64,000 bases of DNA from Stylophora pistillata (taxonomy: Eukaryota). The stretch is taken from the NCBI RefSeq assembly GCF_002571385.2, contig NW_019218085.1, positions 1 to 64,000 on the forward strand, given 5' to 3'. The translations under genes were made by a program, and so were the position numbers. Below, piece after piece: positions 9,244 to 25,481 of this stretch. The number at the start of each line of letters is the position of its first letter. The stretch's first letter is position 1. A model generated the notes under the pieces. That model did no database searches and was not told the origin of the DNA. It worked only from the letters and a program-made list of their open reading frames with translations.

Positions 9244-9802
9244 ATGGCGTCTGGTAGTGATGCGAAGCCCGTAGACTTTTGGCATCGAAATCTTTCGAAA
9301 ATACCCAAAATTACTAACGCTTTTGCAGAGAAATTCGCTGAAGATAATATTCCAATACAAGTGACAATCGACAGAGGGTATAAATTCTTCCACAAAGAAT
9401 TTATTCATGATATTTAAGGTAAATTTTTTTGCATCATTTTTGTCACCTTTAGTGATCTTGTACTGATTTTTTAAGGCTCATAAGCGTTTGATTTCTCTTT
9501 CTTGTTTAGTTAAACTTTGCAAAGAAGATGTTGGACCGACTATTCGTGCGAAATGCTTTAGAAATCAAAGGAAACACAAGGATCGAAATAAGCTATCCGT
9601 CTGCTTTGAACTTTCTACCACAGCTAAACTGATCATCAAATTTATGTGCTCTAGTGCCAATGGAAACGATGTTTGTCACCATGTCCTTGGTTTGTTATTT
9701 ACTATCGCTCATTTTCAGCTCCTAGGGTATAAAAGTGTCCCCCCTGTCATTTCAAAGACACAAAAACCCCAGGTAAAAAGTGTTGTAATAAACATACCAT
9801 GA
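9244..9802 (+). pseudogene. Truncated SWIM-finger ORF of ISL2EU copy 1 (YqaJ part missing)
   Basis: RGYKFF...FIHDI*, an intron, then IRAKCFRNQRK...CSSANGNDVCHHVLGLLF...SKTQKPQ. Aligns by eye with the ORF at 45594 (CSCVAGVEGYCHHVVGLL). Confidence 0.65.
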
Positions 9803-9804
9803 TA

Positions 9805-11907
9805 CGTATATAAGAACGATCCTTCGCAGTAAAGCACTATTTGAGCAATAGTGCTAATCAGACCTGAAAAAAATTTCAGGCCTGTACGGGATTCGAACCA
9901 CTGACCTCTGCGATACTAGTGCAGCGCTCTACCAATTGAGCTAACAAGCCAACTGGGAGCAGGCCATCAAATTAATTCGATATAAACCCGTAGATGATAA
10001 ATCAAACAACAACAAACATATGAAACATATGTGTGAACTGCGGTTATGAGACGTATATGAGAACGATCCTTCGCAGTAAAGCACTATTTGAGCAATAGTG
10101 AAAATCAGACCTGAAAAAAATTTCAGGCCTGTACGGGATTCGAACCACTGACCTCTGCGATACTAGTGCAGCGCTCTACCAATTGAGCTAACAAGCCAAC
10201 TGGGAGCAGGCCATCAAATTAATTCGATATAAACCCGTAGATGATAAATCAAACAACAACAAACATATGAAACATATGTGTGAACTGCGGTTATGAGACG
10301 TATATGAGAACGATCCTTCGCAGTAAAGCACTATTTGAGCAATAGTGAAAATCAGACCTGAAAAAAATTTCAGGCCTGTACGGGATTCGAACCACTGACC
10401 TCTGCGATACTAGTGCAGCGCTCTACCAATTGAGCTAACAAGCCAACTGGGAGCAGGCCATCAAATTAATTCGATATAAACCCGTAGATGATAAATCAAA
10501 CAACAACAAACATATGAAACATATGTGTGAACTGCGGTTATGAGACGTATATGAGAACGATCCTTCGCAGTAAAGCACTATTTGAGCAATAGTGGAAATC
10601 AGACCTGAAAAAAATTTCAGGCCTGTACGGGATTCGAACCACTGACCTCTGCGATACTAGTGCAGCGCTCTACCAATTGAGCTAACAAGCCAACTGGGAG
10701 CAGGCCATCAAATTAATTCGATATAAACCCGTAGATGATAAATCAAACAACAACAAACATATGAAACATATGTGTGAACTGCGGTTATGAGACGTATATG
10801 AGAACGATCCTTCGCAGTAAAGCACTATTTGAGCAATAGTGAAAATCAGACCTGAAAAAAATTTCAGGCCTGTACGGGATTCGAACCACTGACCTCTGCG
10901 ATACTAGTGCAGCGCTCTACCAATTGAGCTAACAAGCCAACTGGGAGCAGGCCATCAAATTAATTCGATATAAACCCGTAGATGATAAATCAAACAACAA
11001 CAAACATATGAAACATATGTGTGAACTGCGGTTNCCGTACAGGCCTGAAATTTTTTTCAGGTCTGATTTCCACTATTGCTCAAATAGTGCTTTACTGCGA
11101 AGGATCGTTCTCATATACGTCTCATAACCGCAGTTCACACATATGTTTCATATGTTTGTTGTTGTTTGATTTATCATCTACGGGTTTATATCGAATTAAT
11201 TTGATGGCCTGCTCCCAGTTGGCTTGTTAGCTCAATTGGTAGAGCGCTGCACTAGTATCGCAGAGGTCAGTGGTTCGAATCCCGTACAGGCCTGAAATTT
11301 TTTTCAGGTCTGATTTCCACTATTGCTCAAATAGTGCTTTACTGCGAAGGATCGTTCTCATATACGTCTCATAACCGCAGTTCACACATATGTTTCATAT
11401 GTTTGTTGTTGTTTGATTTATCATCTACGGGTTTATATCGAATTAATTTGATGGCCTGCTCCCAGTTGGCTTGTTAGCTCAATTGGTAGAGCGCTGCACT
11501 AGTATCGCAGAGGTCAGTGGTTCGAATCCCGTACAGGCCTGAAATTTTTTTCAGGTCTGATTTTCACTATTGCTCAAATAGTGCTTTACTGCGAAGGATC
11601 GTTCTCATATACGTCTCATAACCGCAGTTCACACATATGTTTCATATGTTTGTTGTTGTTTGATTTATCATCTACGGGTTTATGTCGAATTAATTTGATG
11701 GCCTGCTCCCAGTTGGCTTGTTAGCTCAATTGGTAGAGCGCTGCACTAGTATCGCAGAGGTCAGTGGTTCGAATCCCGTACAGGCCTGAAATTTTTTTCA
11801 GGTCTGATTTCCACTATTGCTCAAATAGTGCTTTACTGCGAAGGATCGTTCTTATATACGTCTCATAACCGCAGTTCACTCATATGTTTCATATGTTTGT
11901 TGTTGTT
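9805..11907. repeat. 247-bp tandem array of a tRNA-derived unit in two inverted arms (~5 and ~3.5 copies), with a 12-bp TSD
   Basis: gaacgatcc recurs at 9814, 10061 and 10308. Orientation flips at the n at 11034. The unit contains a tRNA-like cloverleaf (e.g. 11221-11293, A/B boxes, AGT anticodon, mismatched T-stem). CATACCATGATA occurs at 9793-9804 and 11908-11919. Confidence 0.9.
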
Positions 11908-12222: not shown

Positions 12223-13412
12223 CTACGATTTTTCATAGAACAAAGGAACTTGAAAATTAGTAATCAAACATGCAAAAGCCCAGATTTGATTTATACTACC
12301 AGCTACAGTCAGTGGGATTACACGATCAAAGTAGTGAAACTCTTTAATCCTGCATATATATCTTTCTACATGAACCCTTAAGTTAGTTATTTGCTTATTA
12401 TGAGAAAGTTCTTTCTTAGAGAATTTGCCCTTACTCTGGAGAAAAGCAGGCATTGCCACACTGCACCCTAATGGTTGTAAAAGCTCCTCTATTACAAAGT
12501 CTTTATCAGCCATAGTTTTATCACCTGGTTCAAGTAAATCCAGTAGACCTGACTGCTTAGCAATTTCCTTATCAGATATGCTGCCTCCAAAAAGAGAACT
12601 TATGTGAATAATTTCCCCTTATGGTGATATGACCACATTGCCTTGTAGGTAGTGTGGCTTTTATAGGAGGAGTAACAGCAGCTATTTAAAACCATACTTG
12701 ATGGTGTTTGCACCTTTATTTCAGAGGCATCTATGATAACACGGCTCGTAGGATACAATGACTTGAAACACTTTGGCATATGCTTGTCGATAATACTTCT
12801 AGCTGGCCAAATGGGACTAGTTCCCAAAACAAAATAGAGAAAATTAATCCACGAAATAAAAACTCTGCTTACGGTTGACTCAGAAATATTAAATTCCCTT
12901 GCTAGTTTCTCATTGAAAGTGCCTAGCCTTAACTTGGTAACACATAAATAGAATTGATCAAATAAACTAAGTTTACATGCCCTAATGGCATTTCCGGTCT
13001 TGTTTATTTCATTTTCTCCTTTATTCCTTACTCTCTGAAACTGCGACCACGAGTACATTTTTTCAGCTGTTGGCCTCAAAGCATTAAATGTACTTACAAG
13101 AACTTCAAATGAGAAAAATCCAGTGTGAAACCTTACACTCTTGTTAGACATGCCTTGCAATTGTCTGTACAATGATTCTTTCTTTAGCAGTTTTTCTAGT
13201 TCCTCGATGCGCTTTTGTGCTGCCTCCAATAGGTCTTCTACGGAGAACTGCCTACTTACCGAGAAAGTTTCGCTGGTATCGCGTCTAATTTGAACCATCC
13301 ATTGTCTTCTAAGCGCTTTGTCTTTAGGAAACTGATGGAATGTTAAGTTATTAAGTGCTTTTGATCTATTATTGCTGCACTTGGGAACACTGCAGTGATC
13401 TTTGTTCGGCAT
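12223..13412 (-). pseudogene. THAP-HTH-DDE (HARBI1/DDE_Tnp_4-like) transposase, frameshifted
   Basis: N-terminal HCSVPKCSN...FHQFPKD...W...IRRD (THAP, C-terminal half missing); RVIIDASE, YSSYKSHTTYK, MADKDF and RVHVERYI motifs; frameshift near 12640. Confidence 0.85.
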
Positions 13413-13691
13413 GATTCGATTACCTGAGGCGATCAGGAACCACGCGGCGCCTCGTTCTCATGTAAACACATTACGTCATTTTCAAGACGGCGGGGGAGTG
13501 ATAAGGGCAAATTAGGAAAAAAGGCATTCTTTACAAGTGCTGCTGTGCACCGACTTAAGTCTACAAACTGATGTCTTTCTCTACAAATATCTAACATCTC
13601 TAAGGCAGTGATTATACGTACTATTTCCTTATTTTCCTATTCCTTTAAGTGTGTACATTCAAATTTTAGACCATTTTAGTACATTTTTATG

Positions 13692-16600
13692 CTACACTGG
13701 AATTGGCTCATACAAATAGGGCTCAAGAATTTCTACAACATCAAAGCGCTTAACATTTCTAGCTTGAAGAATATGCACTAATTCTGCTACAGTGAACAGC
13801 GGTTGCCTAGCTATCAGCGCCCCCAACATCACCATGCTAGGACTTCCTTCAGGAGTTAGTATCTCATCTCTAAAACGCTGAATCTCTTCCTCGCTGAATC
13901 CAAGGGATGCTCCAACATGTCGCCAATTGCCTTTTCCTTTGAGTGGCCTATCCAGTGTCATGCAAACAGTATGAAACACTTCTTTTGGGAGTTTTTCAAG
14001 ATAAAGGGACGCCTTTTCTTCATTAATAATGACTGGATCTACAAAAAATATATATATGGGTTATTAAGTGCAGCACAGGTAATGCTGTTCACTGAATGAA
14101 AATGGTTGATGGTCAAGTCGCCAAGGGTTACTTGTTACTGGTGAAAGTTTCAATGTCACTCCTTTACATTTGCCTGCAGTTTGAAAGATTGACTAGGGAA
14201 AAATGTCACTATTACATGAGCATCATTTGATTAATACTATTTTTTGGGCAATTAGGTTAATTAGCACCTCTTTCACAGTGGTTCACTCTGTTTCAGTTAC
14301 TCTAACTGTATTCTCCTTCGCAGTCGTTGTGTAGTCTCGTCACACAACGCGCTCTCTCCTTAGTATAATGAGAGGAGGAGAGACAGCGTTGCGTGACGAT
14401 TCCAAACAACGGCTGCGAATGAGACTATTCGAAAAGTCAATGAAGGCACAGCATATGGCCTTACCACACGAGTTCCTGCCTGTCACTAGACGATGGCGGT
14501 CATTACTGAAGCTTGGTTGCCGCTCCTCAGGCCTCCTAAATGGGTCCTAAAGAAATAAGTGCATTAACTTTTAAATAATGGAACGGTAGGCAGTAAAGTT
14601 ATACTATTTCTACACGAACACTCAAAAAGTAAATTCCGATTTACTAAATTAGTACATTACATAATCATGCTATATGGCTCGTGTGAAAGAGAATGAAGGA
14701 ATATTTACACCTGATTGGATGTCAGTGAGACTTAATGGTTGTTTTTTTTTTAGTGGCTTTAAAAGTTACATTTTCAAATAATACACTGTATGCAAATAGT
14801 CTTAGATATAAGGAGCTAAACAAGTTCAAATGATTAGAAAAGCACTAGTTTCCGAGTAAAAATAACAGACGTTAACCGAACTTATTGCCAAAAATTTTTC
14901 AATCTTAAAGAATGAACTACTTCAAATTATTAATTTAAGATAAAAGGACACCTACCTCTTTAATCGAGGCAACTGCACAAATTGTGGTTGTTGAATCTCC
15001 AGTAGTTAGTTCAAATATACAAAGGAAATCTCTGTTGCGACCATTGTCATGTTTAAAAACTATTTCTGCTCTGGGTATCATTTGATAGGATTCCTTCAAA
15101 TGTTTTTGTGTGATACACTGTGAGATTAAAAGAATATAAGTCAGGTGAAATTTCATTCTTTTCTATCTAGAAATGGGAACATCAACGTAAATGATCAATA
15201 GTATAAATACAATTTTTATATAAATCATTCCCTGCAATCAACCTGACCTTCTTCCCTTTTCAAATTTCTTTAATTACACTTTTCATTCTTTAAAGTTTCC
15301 AAATTTCTCTGAAAGGAAATGTCTAGTACCTTTTTGTGTACTTTTACTTGTCTTACTTTTTTGTGTATCCATTGCAGGAAAAAACATACGGTCCTATAGT
15401 TATTGAATACACGATGATGGTTTTCTTCCTTTAACAGTATAATTTCTTATTTGCATTAGAAAACATTTACCAAATCCGACAAAACTACAAGTTTTTTTTA
15501 AAAAATGTTAGGATTGGGACAGGGTTCAAAGGGTTGTATAAAAAATGTTATGCATGGATTAAAAAAAGTTAAATAACTGTAGAGTTATAGAGAAAGTATT
15601 AAACTGCAGTTGTGGAACTACCTCTGGTTTAATCTCTCCAACAGTCCACCCCTCGACTGGCTGTTTTACAGAAATCTTGATAGCAGTTTCAATTGCCACA
15701 GTTTCGACATAGATAGACTGAGGGGAACCCAACAAAATTCTTCCACTTGACCTCTCTTCTTGCATGATTTTCTGGAAAAAGGAAATATGTGTTTATAAGA
15801 CAATTTGCAAATTCACCTTATCACGTTGTGTTGATTACAAAACCATACAGTGAGAAAGTGAGAGTGGTCTCCAGTATGAGAGTTGTGTGCTTTATCTTTT
15901 TTTCACCCAGTGATAGTTAATTGTTACAGAATTACTTAACATATGGCAAGTGTGGATAAATTATATTTTGGTTTCAGATTAGGTCCACGCTTGCTTACGT
16001 TCCTCACCCTAGAAGAGTGAAGTACCAGAATACCAGTAATTTGGCAGTGTATATTTACCCATCAGTACCTGTCTCAGATGTGACTTTAATCCTGGGCCCT
16101 TAAACAAGCCTTGCAGTTTGTTTGGAGAATATATTACAAGAAGGTGTCAAAAATAACATTTTTCAGTGTTCATGTACCTGTGCCTTCTAATGTAAATCTC
16201 ATGTTAATTGTATATCAATCAAAATGAAGTCTATTCAAATGAACTAAACAAATGTTTAATTGTATAAGTACCTCTAATGATGCCTCACAGTCATCAAAGA
16301 CATACAAATATGCTGTGTAGTCCATGCCAACTGTACCCTCTCCACCAAAAACAGCACACTGAAGGCGCTTCTTTGTTGGTTTGCCATTGTCCATTGATGT
16401 ACCATTGACTACGTAGGAACTAAGATTATCCACTTGAAAGCTGACTTCATTATTGTGGACTTCAAACTGATTTTCCTTCTTCCACCATATTGTTTCATTA
16501 TGTGGTAGAGAGCTTTTTAATGTGATTTCCCAGTCATTACTTAAAAAAACCAAAGCACTATGTGGTATTCTAACTTGCACTGGTTTGGATAGTTGCTTCC

Positions 16601-18776
16601 CATATGGATGAAACTTTATCACAGGGCTAAGCTGCACTTCACCAGATTGAGGAGAAAGCATGCAGTAAACATCCCAACATATCTCCAATCTTATTTCTTG
16701 AGCATCATTGAAGAAACTCTCTGTATCGCTGAACTGGACTAAAACACCTGATTTATCAAAAGATAAGGTCTCCTGTGCTCCATGAGCTATCGGCTCCTCC
16801 AATGATATCGAGAGACTATGGCCATGGGGCACTGGAAAAAAAAAATTACATGACAAGCTTAAGGTGTAGTATTAGCGAGTCCAATCTGCTCACTTGCTAA
16901 GGTGCTAACTGACTGGATCACAAAAAGTAAACAATAAGCTGAATTATTGCTGTCTTTATTTCTGTTTTAAAACCTCTCTATAAGGTTCTCAATCACTTTA
17001 AGTAAAAAAAATTGCTTGAATTGATGTTTCTTACTTAACCTGTAATTAACAACTTCCCATAAAGAATTTAAACTATATACATTCAAGCAAGCATAATATA
17101 GTTTTTAACACTTTCCTCATTAATCCTTGAAAAGTTGAAGTAAAAAACCTTTTCTTGAAATTAACTTCCATCTAATTTCTTTATATTTGTTTCAATAAAT
17201 CTTGAATAATTGTGATTATTTACACATGAATTCATAATAACATTTTAAAAAATTAATTTGAATATCATTTCATCAGTATTCAATTCAACCTTTTGTATAT
17301 ACATCAGTTAAATGTATGAAACGATGAAACCTTACCTTCCTCTAAAGATGGCTGCAACTTGGCATAAAAAAATCTACTTAGAGAACCTCTATTCTTTCTG
17401 TATTTCAAGTATCCCAACAACAACGATGCCATGATTGCAAAAATTATCCCTACTATCATCACTGTCAATAAAGTGGTAGTGATTGTGGTTTTCTGTTCAA
17501 TGACAGTCCCAATTTTGCTTCCTTCCTGACATACTGTGATGGATCTCTGAGTGTAACTACACTGTGTACTCTTTGGCATACTGTGTCTCACACATTCAGG
17601 AATTTGAACATCTTTTTCATCACCACAGCAGGCAGAGCATGGCTTGCATTCTGTTCCATTCATACTATAAAATCCTTTATTACAATTTCCACAAACCCTA
17701 TCGTGTGTCAGATTGCAGGGTGTCATTTCTATCTGTCCAACTGAACAAGTAGCTGAGCATGTCTTGCAAGGGTGTGTACCTGGCTTTTCGGAATATGTTT
17801 TACCAAGAGAGCATTTCATACATTTGACATCATCAATACTCTCTAGTATATGTCCACTTCCACATGGAATAGAAGGCGATGTTCCTGCTGGACAGCTCTT
17901 ACAATCCACACAGTGTGCACTCCCTTTTTTGTTTGTTACAACAAGGTATTGGTTATCTCTACATTTTGGTGCTTGACAATGGATAGCATTGGCATCACAT
18001 CTTTGATAGAATGGCATGTTTTTACATTCATCTTTCACACTATTGCTTGTTTCAGTGTGGTTGGGGAGAAATGAGCAACAAAAGGAACATGGCTGACAAT
18101 CTCCAGTTAATCCTTCACTATAGAAGCCTTTATCACATTGTCCACACACCGAATTTGAAGTAAAATTGCATTTCTTTATTTCTCTTTCATGATCTGCACA
18201 TATTCCACATGGACTGCAAGATCTAATATCATGAGCCATAGAATATGTTTTTCCAAGCTCACACTTTTTGCACTCAATGCGGGTTCCATATTTAACCAAA
18301 TTATTGCACTGCGGAGTCAAGCCATATCCAGGAGGACACTTAGGGCAACTGATGCAAGAATAGTTACCCATCACATCTTCAACTTTAAACTGGTTCCACC
18401 TACACCGTAGGGAATAACTTGCAGCACATACATATATAATCTAGAGGATAAAAAAAACAATATACGAAATAACCATGCAAACTTAGTATAATCATGTTTG
18501 GAAAATTTAGAATGATGCAACTCTATCTCAAAATGGATGAAATGTGTAATGTTAATGTTCTCTTTATCGAACCTAACCTTGAGATATTTGGCATGAACTC
18601 TTAAGAGACAGTTTTTACAGTCATGACAACTGATGTTTGTGGACCTATTTTTTACAAAGTATTTTGAAATCAATTGATCAACTATTTCTGTAAGAAAGTT
18701 GGCAATAAAGCTAATGAAGGGGCAATATACTCACAAAGAACGACAGCAAGAAGAAAAATGACAATGTCTTGGCCAT
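13692..18776 (-). CDS. Gene B: chimeric receptor - signal peptide, duplicated TNFR cysteine-rich module, TM, ZU5, UPA, death domain
   Basis: Seven phase-compatible GT-AG exons: 18776-18735, 18440-17336, 16831-16272, 15771-15622, 15117-14956, 14546-14465, 14038-13692. ZU5 motif LSPVIKFHPYGKQLSKPVQVRIPHS; UPA motif KKRLQCAVFG...YLYVFDDCEASLE; death domain GNWRHVGASLGFSEEEI...SPSMVML. No stops seen. Confidence 0.88.
14309..14428. mobile_element. Small palindromic MITE in a gene B intron
   Basis: ttcgcagtcgttg...gtcacacaacgc...ctctcc pairs with ggagag...gcgttgcgtgac...caacggctgcgaa. Confidence 0.6.
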
Positions 18777-19507
18777 GCTCAAACCACTTAGTAATCCCTG
18801 CAAAAGAAAGGACGACCTTTGTAAAAACGCAACTTCGTTCAGTTCAATAATGCGCACCGAGCACTAGCAGTGGGATGAAACATTTCGTTGACATAATTCC
18901 TCTACAGTTGCTTACTCAGCACATGCTTTCCAAAAATATGATTACGCAGCATAATTTTATGCTTACTTCGTAGCAAGCCTTTTTAGCACAAAATGCCTGA
19001 CTAATACCCATAACAAAAATAGCGCCTCTGAATTCCGAATTTTAATTTTTTTCGAAGAACAGTAGCAATTATAACATCTTAACTATAAAGATCATACGTT
19101 TAAAACGTCTTTGAGGTAGGGCTACGTCTATCACGACGGTTACGTTAAGCGTCTACCGGAAACAAGACTAAATTACAATTTTGTTGGATCAAGCTACATT
19201 TTACATGCTTTTGACGATCTCCTTGTTATCAAAGATACAAAAACTTTTTAATACTTACAAATTGAAATTGTAAATGGGAACTATGAACGTGGTTCCCCGA
19301 CAGCAGTTGGTGTACGAGCGGGTTCGACCGAACTTACGTCCCTAAACATCTGTATAATTGTGGTGTAAGTATTCGGGGATTCCCCGACGAGATTGCGTCA
19401 CGTCCGGAGAGGGAATGAGAAATACGCTTAGCTTGCCAATTTTTATTTTGTTCGAAGTCATTGTAGGCGGCATTCAAATATGGCAGTTCCATGAGGATTG
19501 TTCTGTA
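18777..19507. promoter_or_regulatory. Divergent promoter of genes B/C
   Basis: Start codons ~730 bp apart; GGGGATTCCCC (kappaB) at 19375-19385, followed by TGCGTCA (CRE/AP-1-like). Confidence 0.6.
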
Positions 19508-21858
19508 ATGAGTGGAAACGAACGGTTTGATTATGGGAAGGCCGTCCAGGCAAATTGTGCCAACTGTGGGGTTGTACAGATTCCTTCCAGGGTGTCGCTT
19601 AACACTTCATGCCCACGATGTAAAGGGGTTCTTGTTTTGAACACTGTCGACTTGCACTCACAAAGGAGAAGCACAGACAATCGAGAGCAAAACTTACTTC
19701 TCCAGGATGATAACGAAGATTTGGAGAACACAACACTGGCTCCTTCGACTGAGGATTCTGCCGAGTTGGACACGGTGTCTCTACAACATCTGAGCTTAGC
19801 GACTGATGAAAACCTTTCTGGTTTACCGCTACAGGAGAGCTTTGAAGCAAGTTCAAGTCGACGAAAAGCAAGCACGTACCCAAGTAAACTTTCGAAGACT
19901 CCGACTGAGGGAAATGACGAAAACGGAATAAATGGCGTGTGCCAGACTTGTGGTAGGTAGTTTATGTAACAGTTACGATTAGTGGAGAAATCGAATTGAC
20001 AATTACATAGTCGGAACTTCCTCCAAGCCGATGAAAATTTAAACTGACTTCCAGTTAATAAGCATAAGAGAGGACCAACAAGAATCACAATCATCTTTAC
20101 ACATCTTTGCTTTTTCTGTTATTTTAGGGGAGTTGAACTCGACCCACGAATGTCTGTCTTGCTTCATAGCAGTATTCAAGCGAGGAGTTATCTCTGGAAA
20201 GAATCGAAGTCTTGTCGTGTACATTATTCCGAAGGAAAAATTCGATTTGGTAAGATAAGGATTTTTCTCTCCTCTAGCCGCTAGACATTTCCTTTTGAAT
20301 TAGTTCCGAGAATTTGGTGTTGAATCAAGATAGCACTTTCTACATCATAACTGTTCGCGCGTTTTTATTGCCTGTATGGATATTATAGTGAGAGGGTAAA
20401 CAAGTAGTCGTGCTCATAAACTATCAGTCAAATCCTTCAAAAAATCTGTGAGTTTGATCGCACGAAAGTTGTTCCTTAAGAAAACCGTGTGGGGGCACAA
20501 TACTTACTGCGTCCTCAACTACACAACATTTCCAAACTTTTGAACAATTATGTACATCTAATTGAATAGAAGTTTACAATATTGGTCGAGAAACTCCTAC
20601 CAAAGGTATTAGATTAGATTCAAGATAACGTAGACATTGACCAATCTGTTCATGGTCAATTTCGGTCTCACAGGTGTTTGCCAAAATCGTCCAAAATGAA
20701 GCAGCTGCATACGAAGGAACCGAGATAGCTGTGATCGATGACAAAAGAACCTTCTTCTGCTATCATCCTCAAATGGCAATCCAAAATGAGTTAACAATCA
20801 TTTTTAAAATGGATTGTGGCGAATGTTTCGCTTTGATCAGTCCTGCGGTAAGTAACACTTTAAATCCTGAACAATTCTCAGTCTGAGCTTTATTACTACA
20901 TTTTAATTTACTCTTTAGCATAAATTGTTGTGGATAGCCTAGGATTAGCCGGGCATTAAGAGCCTGGGGCTTGCCAAGTTTAATACCACTTAATAGAATT
21001 ACCCTGCTCATTATAATAATAATTTACATTTCTAGAGCGCTAAAATTATAAAATATTCTAAAGCGCTTTACAACATATTAACTACAAATATTAAAATGAT
21101 AAACGACAAGTATTTCATTGTTGGGTTTGATTCATTGTTGGGTTTGATTCTAGAATAGTACTTATTCTACGCTGTATACAGATCTTCTTAAAATGGCAGG
21201 TCGACCAGGCACCCTATTTGCATCCTGTTATGTTAGGACATTCTTAAAATGAAAATAAATTTGTTATCAACTAGCCAAAAAGTTGCGTAATCCGAGAGTA
21301 CAAAAACTGAGAATTGATAATATTTCAATAGTCAACCACCCTTGGTGTCCAACATGTACTTGCAAAAAGTGAAGAGAGAATATTTCCTGGCGCTCATGTC
21401 AAGCTGGTCACTGCATATGTTGGAGAGGAAAATACTCTTCGTGAAGACAAAGTGAGAATGGCACTGCTGAGTGGACAAGCGAGACTGGGCATTCTCATTC
21501 CTACTAAGGTATGGCTTTAGTAAAATTGATATCTTTAACCAACTTCTGTGTTCGTATTGTTCGAGTCACCAATAACAAAACTGAAGATTTTCTTCCTCTT
21601 CAGCACTGATAACATTCATATCAGATCTTTTCATTCACAACCCAACTTCTAAAATTGCAATTGACTCGAACATCATTTCAATTTGGCTTTACCAATTGTG
21701 TACATTTCTCTATTTAATTGTTATTAGAAATTGGTTATGATTTAATTAACCAATCGAATTTTTTTTCATGATCTTCTAATTTGTTTTTGCAGAGCTCCCC
21801 ATCGATAACAGTCTTACCTCTAAAGGGGTTGCTTCTTCAGATAGTAAACTGTTTGTAG
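19508..21858 (+). CDS. Gene C: cytosolic protein - CxxC..CxxC ribbon, acidic region with TRAF motifs, stand-alone UPA-like domain
   Basis: Exons 19508-19952, 20128-20249, 20674-20847, 21332-21508 and 21793-21858 splice in phase. Motifs CANC-x13-CPRC, PLQES, PTEGND. Exon pattern and sequence parallel genes E and G. Last exon tentative. Confidence 0.7.
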
Positions 21859-23591
21859 TTGTATCTGACAAATGAAACAAACAACTGCGACCAACTCAAA
21901 CATAAAGGATCGAATGATTTTTAGTCGACAAAACGTATTTATAGAGTGTTTTAAAGAAAGCTCCCCCTCCTCCTCCGCAGTAACAAGCTGAACTGCTTAC
22001 TACTGGCAGAGTACTGCTGGATTATGACAATCCAGAATAGGTACTTCCTTATCAACGGCCAGCTAACATCTTGTCTCCCAGTATTCTGTGTTACACACAG
22101 AAAGTGCTAATCAATATAATTATGAATTTCTGTATTCTTAGGTTCATCATACACCAACCGATGTCCTTGATGGTCTAAACTACTCAGGTACAAAACTTAA
22201 AATTTCTTTTTAAATGTTCAGTTCAAACGAATTTTCGTGTAAATTAGTGAACGTACTTTTCTTGATCTCGATATCAGTCTGGAAATCAAAACATCGAAAG
22301 AAAGCTCTCTTGAAACGTGAAATATATCATGCTTCANCACGGTGTCTCAAAACCGCAAATATTGTAAGGGATACTTCATATAACGACAAACAAAGCGAGC
22401 TTAAGTTTTGTATGGCAAAATTAGAAGATTATTTGCCTGCTGGTAAAGGGCTAAGCTGCCTCGGGATGACCTTGGAACGAGCTTAATACCAGACGACATC
22501 GCTGCTAAGCCTTTGGCTTATGAAAATCCTGCGGCGCTGAAATCAACTGGAAACAGCAATTGTTTGTGTAGTTAAGTGCCGTATTTTAGCCAGTACAAAA
22601 AGAACAAAAGTGTCTCTATTATCTTAATATTTTTTATCGTGGCCATCGACTTAGGTGGGGACCGGTTCGAGCAATAAGAGTGTGAGGGCCTGGCACTAGC
22701 ACATTGATCTTCGTTGCGTTTTCGTTCCGTTTCGGCGAAGCACTCTTAGTTGAATCTAGGTACAGAAAGATGGCCCCCATATGTCTTATACACAGAGCTT
22801 AACAGGGTACCAGCATAGTTCCAACTAAATGGAAATAATAAGAGAAAGATACCCGAAGCCTTCACAAGAACGTTCTTCGAACGGACAAACACGCTTATTG
22901 AGATGTAGGACTCTGTTACCGTTACACGGCTTTTGTTAAGTATGTATATTGCGTTAAATGAAAACATTTTGTTGAAAGGTTAAATTTTGTGCTTAACTAT
23001 AAATTAAGGTAAGTTATACCATGGGTTCCATGAGGAATTACGTTTTCTTTAGTTTGCGGCAAATTCAGCGGCGAAGCCGCGATCGTAGCGTGGCAAGCAA
23101 GAAACCAAAAAAAGAAAAACCAAACACTTGTTTTTGGCGACCAAACCCTTCTATCTGGCGACCAAAATTTTTAGGTTAGTCGCCAGTTGGCTCCCTTAGG
23201 AAAAAGTTAATTTCTGACCCTGATTGCCTGAAAGTTACTTGCTTAAAGCTGTGTAATCTCTGATATCCTTCATTCAGTACCGAAAGAAAAACTACATCCG
23301 TTATGCTTTCAAAGGCATACCACTACTAATGAATGAATCATTTGAATTAAAGTTACTTGACGGGAGATGAGGGAATTTCAGATCTAAAGATCCGCTAACA
23401 TACCTTATAATCTTTTCACTTTTCCTATTCCCTCTTTAAAAAAATTGCGAAAAATATGTCATCTACACTATATCTTGGTTCTTAGTCTTGTTCTGACGAT
23501 CAAATCAAAACAAAAGGGCGTGTACCCAATGTAATGCCTCCAGTTTGTGAAGGCAGAAGTTCACGTTTCGGAACCTTCATCTGGTCGATTA

Positions 23592-25481
23592 TCAAGCTTG
23601 CAGCAGAATGATGCAGTCTCCGATGTTTTGTTCTTTTCCCTTTCCACTTTTCGCATCAGTGAGATTTGCCACATTTGTGACTTGTTCTCCCTCTGAAGGA
23701 AAAAACTAATAGTTACGACATGGTCAACTCAGCAAAGACTTTTGCAAATCAATCCCAGCAAATTGACCTTCATCCATTAGAAGGCTAACAAAGCCCTCAA
23801 CAAGTACAAAAAAACTCACCATTTACAGCATTTGAAAAAAAGCTCTGGTTTGTTTTCTGGATTGGATTCTACAATGAAACAAATAAAGAATAAAACTCTT
23901 TCTCTCGTCACATCTCTCGATCCAAAAGATCAGAAAAACGTACTGATGACGATAACTACACTGCTGGTAAACTCTCATTGGTGTTGTCGATTAAATTTGA
24001 CAGTTTTCATCGACCCATTTATACCTTTAACTCCAAATGATTAGTTTCTGGTTCTAAACAAAAAATGTGACCCGAACCAGGAAAAAAAAAATTTAAAAAC
24101 AAATGACTCGATCCAAATCAAAATAGACTAAAACGGAGGCCACTATGTCTCCTACAAATTAACACATTTAAATCAAAATCATTTTTTGCTGTAAACGTAC
24201 CTCTGAATGTACCTCCTTTAAAGCAGTGCTTGCATAAATTAAAGTTTGACAGGATGCTTGAGTCAAAACAATAGTGGCGAAGAAGCTGCTTTTCTTTTCG
24301 TTGGATGTTGAGCTAAATACCAGGTTGCACCTGGGAAATGAACTGAAAGAGTTCTTCAGAGATGCATAGCTGATTCCCTAGATAAAGGAGAACAAGATGC
24401 AAACGTTTTCAAAATCATCAAGGGTTACTAACACTTTCAGGGGCCTACAAACAAAGTTCATCATCAGGCTCAACATACTTAAAATCTTAATAAAAGCTTT
24501 AAGTTTCATTTTTCCTAGAAAACTCGCACAGTGCTCAAAAAATGCCTGCAAAATACCATTGGTTGACCACTCTCCAGCTTCCAGCCATGCATATCCTTTA
24601 CACCAATTTTCACATCCTCTTCACGTATAACAGAAAAATCAAGAGATTCAACTGATGACATCGGCTTTCCTCCTTCCTTTTTCTCCATCCTCAAAAGGTT
24701 CTGTGGAGCAAAGTCAGACAAGTTCGTTCAAACAGATTACTTACAGAAATAGATCTATTAAAGTTAAGTAAAATAACCGACCATCTATGGAAGTTATGAT
24801 CTTTCATGAATTAGACCTGCAAAAATTATAAATCAAAATTACATATACTTATAATTACCTCATAGATCCTAATTAAGACTTCAGNGAGAGGTGTCTCTCC
24901 TCGGCAAGATAGGGTAACCCTGGAAGGCGAGACAAGTTTTCTCATGTAAACATCTCGTCTTGCCCACCCAAGGCGCGACAACACGAACAGAAAAACCAGC
25001 CCGTGCATTTTACAGCTTTTCTTTTCCTTGTCATCCGCCACTTTGTCGAATACGTGACCTGGCCTGGCCGAACGAGGGTTACCAGATGTCAAATTTCATG
25101 TAAACGCTCCGTAAACTTGTCTCGCGGGGAAGGCTGTCTCAGGTACCCGAGACTATTTCAATGGGGCCTAAATCAAACATGGCCGTCTGATCGTCGCCCC
25201 GATAAACGATCGCGAGCTGGTAACATCTTGAAAACTTCAGCCTCAGTCTAATGCGAATTGGTACTGATCAAAGTTGGCGTTCTATTGCCATTCCTTTCCT
25301 TTTATGCTCCCTACACCTAATATAAGTACAATAAAAATAACCAGCAGATTTTAGCGGACGTTTGGCTCAAGAGGTTTTCACTTCCGCTTGACATTTCACC
25401 GTTTTTGAGATATGAAATGATACAAGACAACCTTACCAAGACACAGAAGAAAACATAGTGTCTAAGTTGACAAAACTCCAT
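23592..25481 (-). CDS. Gene D: paralog of receptor F; ectodomain and ZU5 exons absent across an assembly break
   Basis: Signal exon 25481-25437 (MEFCQLRHYVFFCVL). UPA exons at ~24700-24557 and ~24378-24214, linker exon ~23888-23820 and last exon ~23693-23592 are all open and collinear with F. Intron homology to F stops at the n at 24884. Confidence 0.7.
24885..25168. mobile_element. Non-autonomous DNA transposon fragment, truncated at a contig break
   Basis: GC-richer insert with internal inverted motifs (gcgagacaagttt / aaacttgtctcgc), ending in atggggcc; absent from paralog F. Confidence 0.5.

What the first reader, a model, noticed from the sequence alone, without database searches (positions are those of the whole stretch)
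13692..18776. Intact TNFR/UNC5 chimera: TNFR ectodomain on a full ZU5-UPA-DD tail
Gene B joins an EDAR/TROY-like ectodomain to the intracellular supramodule of netrin dependence receptors through a phase-1 intron, the typical signature of exon shuffling. Vertebrate TNFRs lack this architecture. I recall coral TNFR surveys noting ZU5-bearing members, so the architecture may be partly known. Inference: a ZU5-latched, autoinhibited death receptor controlled by a TNF-family ligand.
Basis: partly seen in the sequence, partly recalled or inferred. Interest (0 to 1): 0.7.

Follow-up and report, generated by a model that had tools for sequence, protein, structure and literature searches.

The report
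Coral TNF receptor with ZU5-UPA insert
A stony coral transcribes one spliced gene for a TNF-type surface receptor that carries, between its membrane anchor and its death domain, the ZU5-UPA unit known from netrin receptors and inflammasome sensors; the unit was likely slotted into an ordinary death-receptor gene before corals and sea anemones split, and it likely tunes receptor clustering rather than locking the death domain.

Summary
The gene is real. It has seven coding exons (18776-13692, minus strand) and encodes 815 aa: signal peptide, two cysteine-rich units, TM, ZU5, UPA, death domain (DD). All six introns appear in all four RNA runs laid, including the phase-1 junction. The protein is identical to Stylophora pistillata XP_022798271.1, and relatives occur across stony corals and in Nematostella. 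TNFR+ZU5+DD is already listed in a 2016 supplementary table, though not discussed in that paper's text.

The 'UNC5 chimera' reading is only partly right. The ZU5-UPA unit is UNC5-like in fold (Z 22.7 to 3G5B) but lies outside UNC5 in a tree. The DD is closer to those of ZU5-less TNFRs in the same cluster than to coral UNC5's. Phase-1 introns flank the ZU5-UPA-linker block on both sides, and neighbouring genes lack either that block or the DD. Insertion of a cassette into a TNFR-DD gene therefore fits better than transplant of a whole UNC5 tail.

The latch is unsupported: UNC5b's interface Val619 is Gln468 here, and the self-cleavage motif is lost. Ligand and output are untested. Verdict: a variant of a known kind, of moderate interest.

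The parts
19259..19290 (-). 3' end of a non-coding first exon (5' UTR); intron 18798-19258; upstream extent not determined
   Evidence: loose read ends at 18797 in X21 (4 reads), X24 (9 reads) and an X13 contig match the window from 19259; GT/AG contexts
18735..18776 (-). coding exon 1, aa 1-14, signal peptide start; phase-0 intron follows
17336..18440 (-). coding exon 2, aa 15-382: rest of signal peptide, two duplicated cysteine-rich units (about 27-169 and 174-318; 38% identical over 115 aa), TM, juxtamembrane; ends in phase 1
   Evidence: Pfam TNFR_c6, internal BLAST, read joints
17403..17471 (-). transmembrane helix, about aa 338-360
   Evidence: hydropathy, helix in model
17337..17348 (-). 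candidate TRAF2-type motif at aa 379-382 in a low-confidence (likely disordered) juxtamembrane stretch; motif pattern recalled
   Evidence: pattern found in the juxtamembrane of 6 of 9 family members scanned; pLDDT under 50 at 362-390; untested
16272..16831 (-). coding exon 3, aa 383-569: whole ZU5 (about 393-530) and start of UPA; starts phase 1, ends phase 0
   Evidence: Pfam ZU5, 3G5B match, joints
16575..16577 (-). Gln468, equivalent of UNC5b Val619 in the ZU5-DD interface
   Evidence: alignment to 3G5B with numbering checked against PMC3210808; family column
16419..16427 (-). Asn518-Leu519-Ser520 at the site of the HF/S autoproteolysis motif of PIDD1 (motif not kept)
15622..15771 (-). coding exon 4, aa 570-619, UPA (phase 0-0)
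   Evidence: both flanking introns align exactly with introns of coral UNC5; the ZO-1-like gene has phase-0 introns at the matching motifs
14956..15117 (-). coding exon 5, aa 620-673, end of UPA (phase 0-0)
14465..14546 (-). coding exon 6, aa 674-700, low-confidence linker (phase 0-1); closes the 1-1 symmetric block of exons 3-6
13692..14038 (-). coding exon 7, aa 701-815, death domain (about 709-810); starts in phase 1, like the DD exons of ZU5-less TNFRs in the cluster
   Evidence: Pfam Death
13000..13691 (-). likely 3' UTR, at least 690 nt, running into a THAP/DDE transposon remnant on the same strand
   Evidence: continuous stranded read depth to the edge of the laid stretch; Pfam THAP, HTH_Tnp_4 and DDE_Tnp_4

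Best explanation
This is one transcribed, seven-exon gene for a type-I TNF-receptor-family protein with a ZU5-UPA unit between membrane and death domain; the unit was likely inserted as a phase 1-1 exon block into an ordinary TNFR-death-domain gene in an early hexacorallian, and it likely works as a rigid, non-self-cleaving scaffold that tunes clustering rather than as an UNC5-type lock. Shown: splicing, domain order and fold; a coral-wide family with a Nematostella member; neighbouring genes that lack the block or lack the DD. Inferred steps: (1) a trimeric TNF-family ligand would bind the cysteine-rich units and cluster receptors; (2) the short juxtamembrane stretch would recruit a TRAF; (3) the clustered DDs would nucleate a DD adaptor assembly giving NF-kB/JNK or caspase-8 output; (4) ZU5-UPA, the best-kept cytoplasmic part, would set the threshold by self-association or by binding a partner, as UPA does in NLRP1/CARD8. 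DD-less and CRD-less paralogues would act as modulators. Odds by step: gene real 0.98; cassette insertion rather than whole-tail transplant about 0.65; scaffold rather than latch about 0.5; TNF-family ligand about 0.65.
For: RNA joints for 6 of 6 introns in 4 of 4 runs. Exons 3-6 are flanked by phase-1 introns on both sides. ZU5-less TNFR-DD genes at G000:C334:150.9-153.6 kb and 159.2-161.3 kb end the TM exon and start the DD exon in phase 1. A genome search with the DD exon gave 62 matches of 65 candidates: the best non-copy is the C334 161 kb ZU5-less TNFR (E 2.6e-8), and coral UNC5's DD is not among them. Pairwise scores are 131 against 49, with coral UNC5 ranked 50 of 57. In the DD tree (58 rows, 98 columns) a starred split (96/92) puts all 7 UNC5 and 6 UNC5CL-like rows away from the gene B and TNFR DDs; the AU test rejects B+UNC5 at p 0.024. 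In the ZU5-UPA tree (34 rows, 289 columns) 14 TNFR-cluster rows including Nematostella form a starred group (99/96) apart from UNC5 plus UNC5CL-like (99/96); the AU test rejects grouping with coral UNC5 (p 0.031) or with all UNC5 (p 0.045). The Val619 column is hydrophobic in 9 of 9 UNC5-type rows and aliphatic or aromatic in 0 of 14 TNFR-cluster rows (2 Cys); HF/S is kept in 0 of 14. UPA identity exceeds both ZU5 and DD identity in 13 of 13 comparisons. A window paralogue keeps ZU5-UPA with no DD, so the unit persists without a DD to lock. The genome has 19 TNF-domain matches of 20 candidates. UPA-driven oligomerisation in NLRP1: PMC7794362 abstract.
Against: DD trees rest on 98 columns. Under the mixture model the split stays but is unstarred (SH-aLRT 82-89). 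Leave-out profiles are mixed: gene B's DD scores 37.4 bits to the TNFR-DD profile and 28.4 to the UNC5 profile, but 2 of 6 B-type DDs score higher to UNC5. The AU p-values are marginal and the tests were run after the trees were seen; grouping with UNC5 plus UNC5CL-like is not rejected (p 0.156). The genomic DD rows were chosen by likeness to gene B. The best solved-structure match for the tail is UNC5b, by sequence and by fold. Gain of the block cannot be told from loss in ZU5-less genes without a root. A polar Val619-equivalent also occurs in 5 of 6 UNC5CL-like proteins, which do have DDs, so one residue does not exclude a latch with a different surface. The ectodomain's best solved match is p75NTR, which binds neurotrophins rather than TNF ligands (established knowledge). 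No ligand, adaptor or output was tested.
Confidence: 0.55

Rival explanations
1. One reading: the whole ZU5-UPA-DD tail of an UNC5-type gene was fused to a TNFR ectodomain, and ZU5 holds the DD shut until ligand state opens it, as in UNC5b.
For: Same domain order and spacing; best sequence and fold match is 3G5B. Two UPA introns fall at the same aligned position and phase as in coral UNC5. His473 matches UNC5b His624. 2 of 6 B-type DDs score best to an UNC5 profile. The closed ZU5-UPA-DD state is described for UNC5b and ankyrin-B (passages of PMC8358048 and PMC9162469).
Against: Phase-0 introns at the matching UPA motifs occur in the coral ZO-1-like gene too, so they do not single out UNC5. 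My coral UNC5 model (not RNA-checked) has an intron inside ZU5 and a phase-0 last exon, unlike gene B. DD affinity lies with ZU5-less TNFRs. Val619 is Gln. DD exons have been exchanged between paralogues: two sister ZU5-UPA rows (100/99) carry different DD types, which fits poorly with a co-evolved ZU5-DD interface. Weak: the AlphaFold model superposes on 3G5B only over ZU5-UPA, not the DD.
Confidence: 0.25
2. Self-cleaving receptor of the PIDD1/UNC5CL/NLRP1 type: autoproteolysis at the end of ZU5 frees a UPA-DD fragment that oligomerises.
For: The fold matches the FIIND of CARD8 and NLRP1 (Z 18.0). Gene B keeps a Ser at the nucleophile position. UPA is the best-kept part.
Against: The motif reads Asn-Leu-Ser. 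His and Phe are lost, and the nucleophile position is Leu in most close relatives. PMC3210808 section 6 and passages show that Phe and Ser are needed in CARD8.
Confidence: 0.08
3. The ZU5-UPA-DD form is the ancestral coral death receptor, and the ZU5-less TNFR-DD genes arose from it by loss of the 1-1 block; the unit is a cytoskeletal or junction anchor, as ZU5 is in ZO-1 and ankyrins.
For: The family reaches Nematostella. Symmetric blocks are lost as easily as gained. The second-best sequence match of the ZU5 is ZO-1.
Against: ZU5 is listed for 10 rows of PMC4979521 Table S1, all Acropora, while that table covers many phyla. DD-bearing TNFRs without ZU5 are the rule in Hydra and bilaterians. 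No anchor partner is known.
Confidence: 0.12

Closest known systems
ZU5-bearing TNFRs of Acropora digitifera (PMC4979521 supplementary Table S1, e.g. 02522Acd and 07000Acd: TNFRSF + ZU5 + Death)
   Same: Same order of TNFR repeats, ZU5 and DD in one protein; 10 ZU5 rows are listed. NCBI A. digitifera proteins align to gene B over nearly the full length.
   Different: The table lists no UPA (0 hits) and the main text never mentions ZU5 (0 hits). No origin, exon structure or mechanism is given. Several Acropora members carry a different DD type.
UNC5 netrin receptors (UNC5b cytoplasmic domain, PDB 3G5B; coral UNC5 at G000:C635)
   Same: Type-I receptor with ZU5-UPA-DD tail; ZU5-UPA fold Z 22.7, rmsd 3.0; two shared UPA introns; no HF/S in UNC5b either.
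   Different: CRD ectodomain instead of Ig-Ig-TSP1; juxtamembrane about 35 aa instead of over 100; ZU5-UPA outside UNC5 in the tree; DD closer to TNFR DDs; Val619 replaced by Gln.
Death-domain TNFRs (p75NTR/TNFRSF16, DR5, EDAR; cnidarian EDAR/p75-like TNFRs)
   Same: Signal peptide, CRDs, single TM, C-terminal DD; ectodomain best matches p75NTR; DD weakly matches MALT1 and p75NTR by sequence.
   Different: About 280 extra residues (ZU5-UPA) before the DD, and a duplicated ectodomain of two units. That vertebrate TNFRs lack ZU5 is recalled and was not tested here.
PIDD1, UNC5CL, NLRP1/CARD8 (autoproteolytic ZU5-UPA-death-fold proteins)
   Same: ZU5-UPA followed by a death fold; Z 18.0 to the CARD8 and NLRP1 FIIND. 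The DD's top structural matches are Tube, IRAK4 and MyD88.
   Different: The HF/S or SF/S motif is absent, and the protein has a ligand-type ectodomain.

Membership tests
TNF receptor superfamily | extracellular TNFR cysteine-rich domains | tested here: met
   Pfam TNFR_c6 63.4 bits against cut-off 29.4; profile matches to p75NTR and DR5
TNF receptor superfamily | signal peptide and single TM helix (type I) | tested here: met
   two hydrophobic segments, aa 1-27 and 331-361; helices in model
TNF receptor superfamily | binds a TNF-family ligand | not tested
   19 TNF-domain matches exist in the genome; no pair was modelled or assayed
Death receptors (DD-bearing TNFRs) | C-terminal death domain | tested here: met
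   Pfam Death 26.9 bits against 22.6; helical bundle, Z 11.9-13.1 to MyD88, IRAK4 and Tube DDs
Death receptors (DD-bearing TNFRs) | recruits FADD/TRADD-type adaptor and triggers apoptosis | not testable with these tools
   needs co-IP and cell assays
EDAR/TROY/XEDAR subfamily | ectodomain and DD closest to EDAR/TROY | tested here: inconclusive
   EDAR chain matched at E 1.2e-3, below p75NTR (4e-14) and DR5 (1e-6); TROY not among the hits; no tree with vertebrate rows was built
UNC5 netrin receptors | Ig-Ig-TSP1 ectodomain | tested here: not met
   only TNFR_c6 on the ectodomain exon; the genome's true UNC5 lies on C635
UNC5 netrin receptors | cytoplasmic ZU5-UPA-DD order and fold | tested here: met
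UNC5 netrin receptors | ZU5-UPA and DD descend from UNC5 | tested here: inconclusive
   trees place both outside UNC5; AU p 0.024-0.045 against, but p 0.156 for sisterhood with UNC5 plus UNC5CL-like; DD profile scores mixed
UNC5 netrin receptors | hydrophobic ZU5 surface residue (Val619) facing the DD | tested here: not met
   Gln468; hydrophobic in 9 of 9 UNC5-type rows, aliphatic or aromatic in 0 of 14 TNFR-cluster rows; interface role from PMC3210808 section 6
UNC5 netrin receptors | closed, autoinhibited ZU5-DD conformation | tested here: inconclusive
   the full-length model (pTM 0.43) superposes on 3G5B only over ZU5-UPA; domain placement in such a model is unreliable
Autoproteolytic ZU5 proteins (PIDD1, UNC5CL, NLRP1, CARD8) | HF/S or SF/S motif before the last ZU5 strand | tested here: not met
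   Asn-Leu-Ser; motif kept in 0 of 14 family rows

The most novel reading that the evidence does not exclude
Hexacorallians run a modular TNF-receptor cluster in which phase-1 exon blocks (ectodomain-TM, ZU5-UPA-linker, DD) are mixed into death receptors, DD-less receptors and CRD-less membrane adaptors. In the boldest form, ZU5-UPA turns a TNF receptor into a conformational switch of the dependence-receptor kind, killing or signalling when ligand is absent, built independently of UNC5.
Probability: 0.15. Interest if true: 0.75.

Novelty: new variant of a known kind. Interest (0 to 1): 0.42.

Why it matters
Coral TNFRs are tied to heat-stress responses and TNF-induced apoptosis (PMC4979521, text read), yet about a quarter of the 40 Acropora TNFRs listed carry a ZU5 (10 rows in Table S1) that none of the papers found here discusses. 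This gene gives a clean, RNA-confirmed example with natural controls next door (no ZU5-UPA; no DD). That makes it directly testable whether ZU5-UPA sets the firing threshold of a death receptor, and whether UNC5-style autoinhibition is portable. It also flags a misleading automatic name (UniRef 'Netrin receptor UNC5B'). It is not a new kind of system.

Tried and rejected
Complex prediction of ZU5-UPA (aa 400-675) with the DD (aa 708-815) gave no answer: score 0.00 in two runs, my alignment not used, controls not folded. It is no evidence either way.

The first AlphaFold run on 14 sequences was poor (pLDDT 55) and was replaced by a 70-sequence run (pLDDT 81). A genome search with Pfam UPA found nothing; this reflects split exons, not absence.

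G000:C354 first looked like UNC5 but is a ZO-1-like gene (PDZ-like exons upstream, read by eye). The true UNC5 is on C635. Shared UPA introns were rejected as proof of an UNC5 donor because the ZO-1-like gene has them too. The UNC5b Glu666 equivalent falls in a gapped part of the alignment and was not used. A search from the Nematostella protein returned only itself and one unnamed protein, so the range beyond Hexacorallia is open.

I recall that a Val619Gln mutant opens UNC5b; a full-text search for it returned 4 unrelated papers, so this stays recall. Quistad 2014, Liao 2014 and Heinz 2012 were not held, and the first may show ZU5 in a figure. Earlier scan findings held nothing on this locus or architecture. 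23 read variants in the coding region (10 synonymous, 13 missense, no stop) are only the best-supported rows shown, and were not used as a test of selection.
Full report
OBSERVATION. The minus strand holds seven coding exons: 18776-18735, 18440-17336, 16831-16272, 15771-15622, 15117-14956, 14546-14465 and 14038-13692. All introns are GT-AG with phases 0,1,0,0,0,1, and the frame is open for 815 aa. Pfam on the exons finds TNFR_c6, ZU5 and Death above their cut-offs; UPA is weak because it is split over three exons. Laying two raw-read runs and two contig sets shows all six introns in all four. The TM/ZU5 intron has 35 reads from 22 starts in X24, and intron depth is near zero. The protein is identical to P0010, Stylophora pistillata XP_022798271.1/PFX20795.1, named 'Netrin receptor UNC5B' in UniRef. 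The ectodomain is two duplicated units (38% identical over 115 aa). Its best solved matches are p75NTR, then DR5, then EDAR, so 'EDAR/TROY-like' is not shown.

FAMILY. A search with the ZU5 exon gave 9 longer proteins, 6 with both TNFR and ZU5 on record. A profile search gave 55 proteins, 9 of them covering at least 96% of the query. Named members come from Stylophora, Oculina, Montipora and several Acropora species. A tail-only profile against 1.84 billion representatives gave 587 hits at E 0.001, of which 150 were listed. I scanned 44 of the longer ones with Pfam and looked up names for 20 listed hits. One is Nematostella XP_001637776 (TNFR + ZU5; UPA by alignment; its DD is degenerate and was missed by my DD profile). 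The architecture therefore likely predates the coral-anemone split (inference). No named member outside Hexacorallia was seen, but most hits are unnamed.

NEIGHBOURHOOD. The gene sits in a tandem TNFR cluster (window; G000 contigs C334, C1609, C630). Three other layouts occur. Type A is CRD-TM-DD without ZU5-UPA (window 4098-612; C334 150.9-153.6 kb and 159.2-161.3 kb). Type C is CRD-TM-ZU5-UPA with a short non-DD tail; its UPA, linker and last-exon joints are seen in reads (window 49849-42525). CRD-less TM-ZU5-UPA forms also occur (P0097, P0102, P0105; an exon of this kind at C334 129.8 kb). In the two C334 type A genes the TM exon ends and the DD exon starts in phase 1, as in gene B. Exons 3-6 of gene B are thus a symmetric 1-1 block, and removing it gives a type A gene.

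ORIGIN OF THE TAIL. The true coral UNC5 (Ig-Ig-TSP1-TM-ZU5-UPA-DD, read by eye from ORFs) is on C635. Two phase-0 introns in UPA align exactly between it and gene B, but the ZO-1-like gene has phase-0 introns at the matching motifs, so they mark the old ZU5-UPA module and not the donor. In my UNC5 model, which is not RNA-checked, ZU5 has an intron that gene B lacks and the last exon starts in phase 0.

In the ZU5-UPA tree (34 rows, 289 columns) the 14 TNFR-cluster rows (11 with CRDs, 3 CRD-less) form a starred group (99/96), and UNC5 plus UNC5CL-like rows form another (99/96). AU tests reject grouping with coral UNC5 (p 0.031) or all UNC5 (p 0.045), but not with UNC5 plus UNC5CL-like together (p 0.156).

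For the DD, a genome search returned 62 matches of 65 candidates. The best non-copy is the ZU5-less TNFR at C334 161 kb, and the UNC5 DD is absent. Pairwise scores are 131 against 49. The DD tree used 58 of 66 extracted rows (left out: one poor match and seven near-duplicate or redundant rows). It has a starred split (96/92) between UNC5/UNC5CL-like and the side with gene B and the TNFR DDs, and the AU test rejects B+UNC5 at p 0.024. Against this, the split is unstarred under the mixture model on 39 rows; leave-out profiles favour the TNFR type in only 4 of 6 B-type DDs; the genomic rows were picked by likeness to gene B; and the tests followed the trees. Some Acropora members carry a DD nested among type A DDs (100/99) while a sister ZU5-UPA row carries a B-type DD, which points to repeated exchange of the last exon. 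On balance, cassette insertion is more likely (about 0.65) than whole-tail transplant; loss from an ancestral form is not excluded.

MECHANISM. The 70-sequence AlphaFold model (pLDDT 80.9, pTM 0.43) aligns to UNC5b 3G5B over residues 391-671 (Z 22.7, rmsd 3.0, 268 residues), and to ankyrin-B, CARD8 and NLRP1 (Z 18.0-18.4). The DD is outside that superposition and best matches the Tube, IRAK4 and MyD88 DDs (Z 11.9-13.1). ZU5-UPA is thus predicted as one rigid unit; the DD's position is undetermined.

In UNC5b, ZU5 binds the DD and suppresses apoptosis (passages of PMC8358048 and PMC9162469), and Val619 lies in that interface (PMC3210808 section 6). The aligned residue here is Gln468. The column is hydrophobic in 9 of 9 UNC5-type rows and aliphatic or aromatic in 0 of 14 TNFR-cluster rows, but also polar in 5 of 6 UNC5CL-like rows. 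The HF/S self-cleavage site reads Asn-Leu-Ser and the nucleophile is not conserved in the family. UPA is more conserved than ZU5 and DD in 13 of 13 comparisons, and ZU5-UPA persists in DD-less paralogues. UPA promotes oligomerisation in NLRP1 (PMC7794362, abstract). A TRAF2-type pattern (recalled consensus) occurs in the juxtamembrane of 6 of 9 members scanned; chance is not negligible for so short a motif.

I therefore favour this sequence: ligand clustering through the CRDs, TRAF and DD-adaptor recruitment, and ZU5-UPA acting as an uncleaved scaffold that sets the threshold. All of these steps are inferred. The genome has 19 TNF-domain matches of 20 candidates; none was tested against this receptor. 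A Hydra preprint (passages) links the EDAR-like cnidarian TNFR to differentiation rather than death, so 'death receptor' describes the domain, not a shown output.

WHAT IS KNOWN. PMC4979521 (parts 1-2 of 4 of the text, term searches, and term searches of supplementary Table S1) lists ZU5 in 10 rows, all A. digitifera, with TNFRSF + ZU5 + Death in 02522Acd and 07000Acd. Its text has no 'ZU5' and the table no 'UPA'. Ten full-text searches turned up no held paper that discusses a TNFR-ZU5 architecture, judged from listings and abstracts plus passages of PMC8195603, PMC10084454, PMC8260672 and two preprints. Quistad 2014, Liao 2014 and Heinz 2012 were not held, Wang 2009 was seen only second-hand, and bioRxiv supplements are closed, so prior mention cannot be excluded.

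VERDICT. This is a TNF-receptor-family member by domain tests, not an UNC5, and not an autoproteolytic ZU5 protein. It is a new variant of a known kind: the architecture is in print in a table, while the UPA, the 1-1 cassette, the modular cluster and the missing latch residue were not found described. Interest 0.42.

Noticed in passing
window 49849-42525 (-): Paralogue C: CRD-TM-ZU5-UPA with a short non-DD tail; tail joints seen in reads. Its TM/ZU5 intron (about 45200-48100) holds YqaJ/alkaline-exonuclease-like frames and THAP/DDE-like frames read by eye. The cleavage-site position reads His-Phe-Ala.
   Followed up: partly
window 4098-612 (-): Paralogue A: short CRD-TM-DD receptor without ZU5-UPA; the stalk/TM exon changes frame near 2800 in this assembly, and the public model PFX20797.1 skips the stalk. 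RNA not checked.
   Followed up: partly
G000:C334:129769-131897 (L018, L019); P0097, P0102, P0105: CRD-less signal-TM-ZU5-UPA forms in the TNFR cluster. The three proteins have His-Leu-Ser at the cleavage site, which resembles the GAIN/GPS motif (recalled) and may self-cleave.
   Followed up: no
G000:C354:106300-108850 (L028, L029, L046): A ZO-1-like gene whose ZU5 is followed by a UPA-like region and keeps an intact His-Phe-Ser motif; a candidate self-cleaving junction scaffold.
   Followed up: partly
G000:C635:139400-154300 (L065, L066): Coral UNC5 has His-Phe-Thr at the autoproteolysis position, unlike the bilaterian UNC5 rows aligned, and an extra domain-sized exon after TSP1.
   Followed up: partly
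window 9799-11907: Two head-to-head arrays of a 247-bp unit (5 and 3.5 copies, 99% alike), carrying 8 tRNA-Thr(AGT) genes in all, meeting near 11034; a real inversion or an assembly join.
   Followed up: no
window 12223-13457 (-): Frameshifted THAP/DDE_Tnp_4 transposon remnant directly downstream; gene B's likely 3' UTR reads into it.
   Followed up: partly
window 13511-15798 and 23225-24884 versus G000:C334:1-10300; window 36635-57019 versus C1609: Near-duplicate stretches (84-96% identity): recent segmental copies or uncollapsed haplotypes. C334:201.4-206.9 kb holds a B-type copy broken by stops and frame changes.
   Followed up: no
window 19259-19960: Gene B's first exon lies about 200 bases from a plus-strand gene starting near 19480-19510 with a weak zinc-ribbon match: a possible shared bidirectional promoter.
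   Followed up: no
G000 genome-wide: At least 34 ZU5 matches of 39 candidates, including unexplained arrays on C28, C746, C95 and C574, and a divergent ZU5-UPA pair on C77 that joins the TNFR-cluster group in the tree.
   Followed up: no
window 40516-41187 and 60818-61378 (-): Two copies of a BMT5-like rRNA methyltransferase frame, the first cut by an assembly gap.
   Followed up: no
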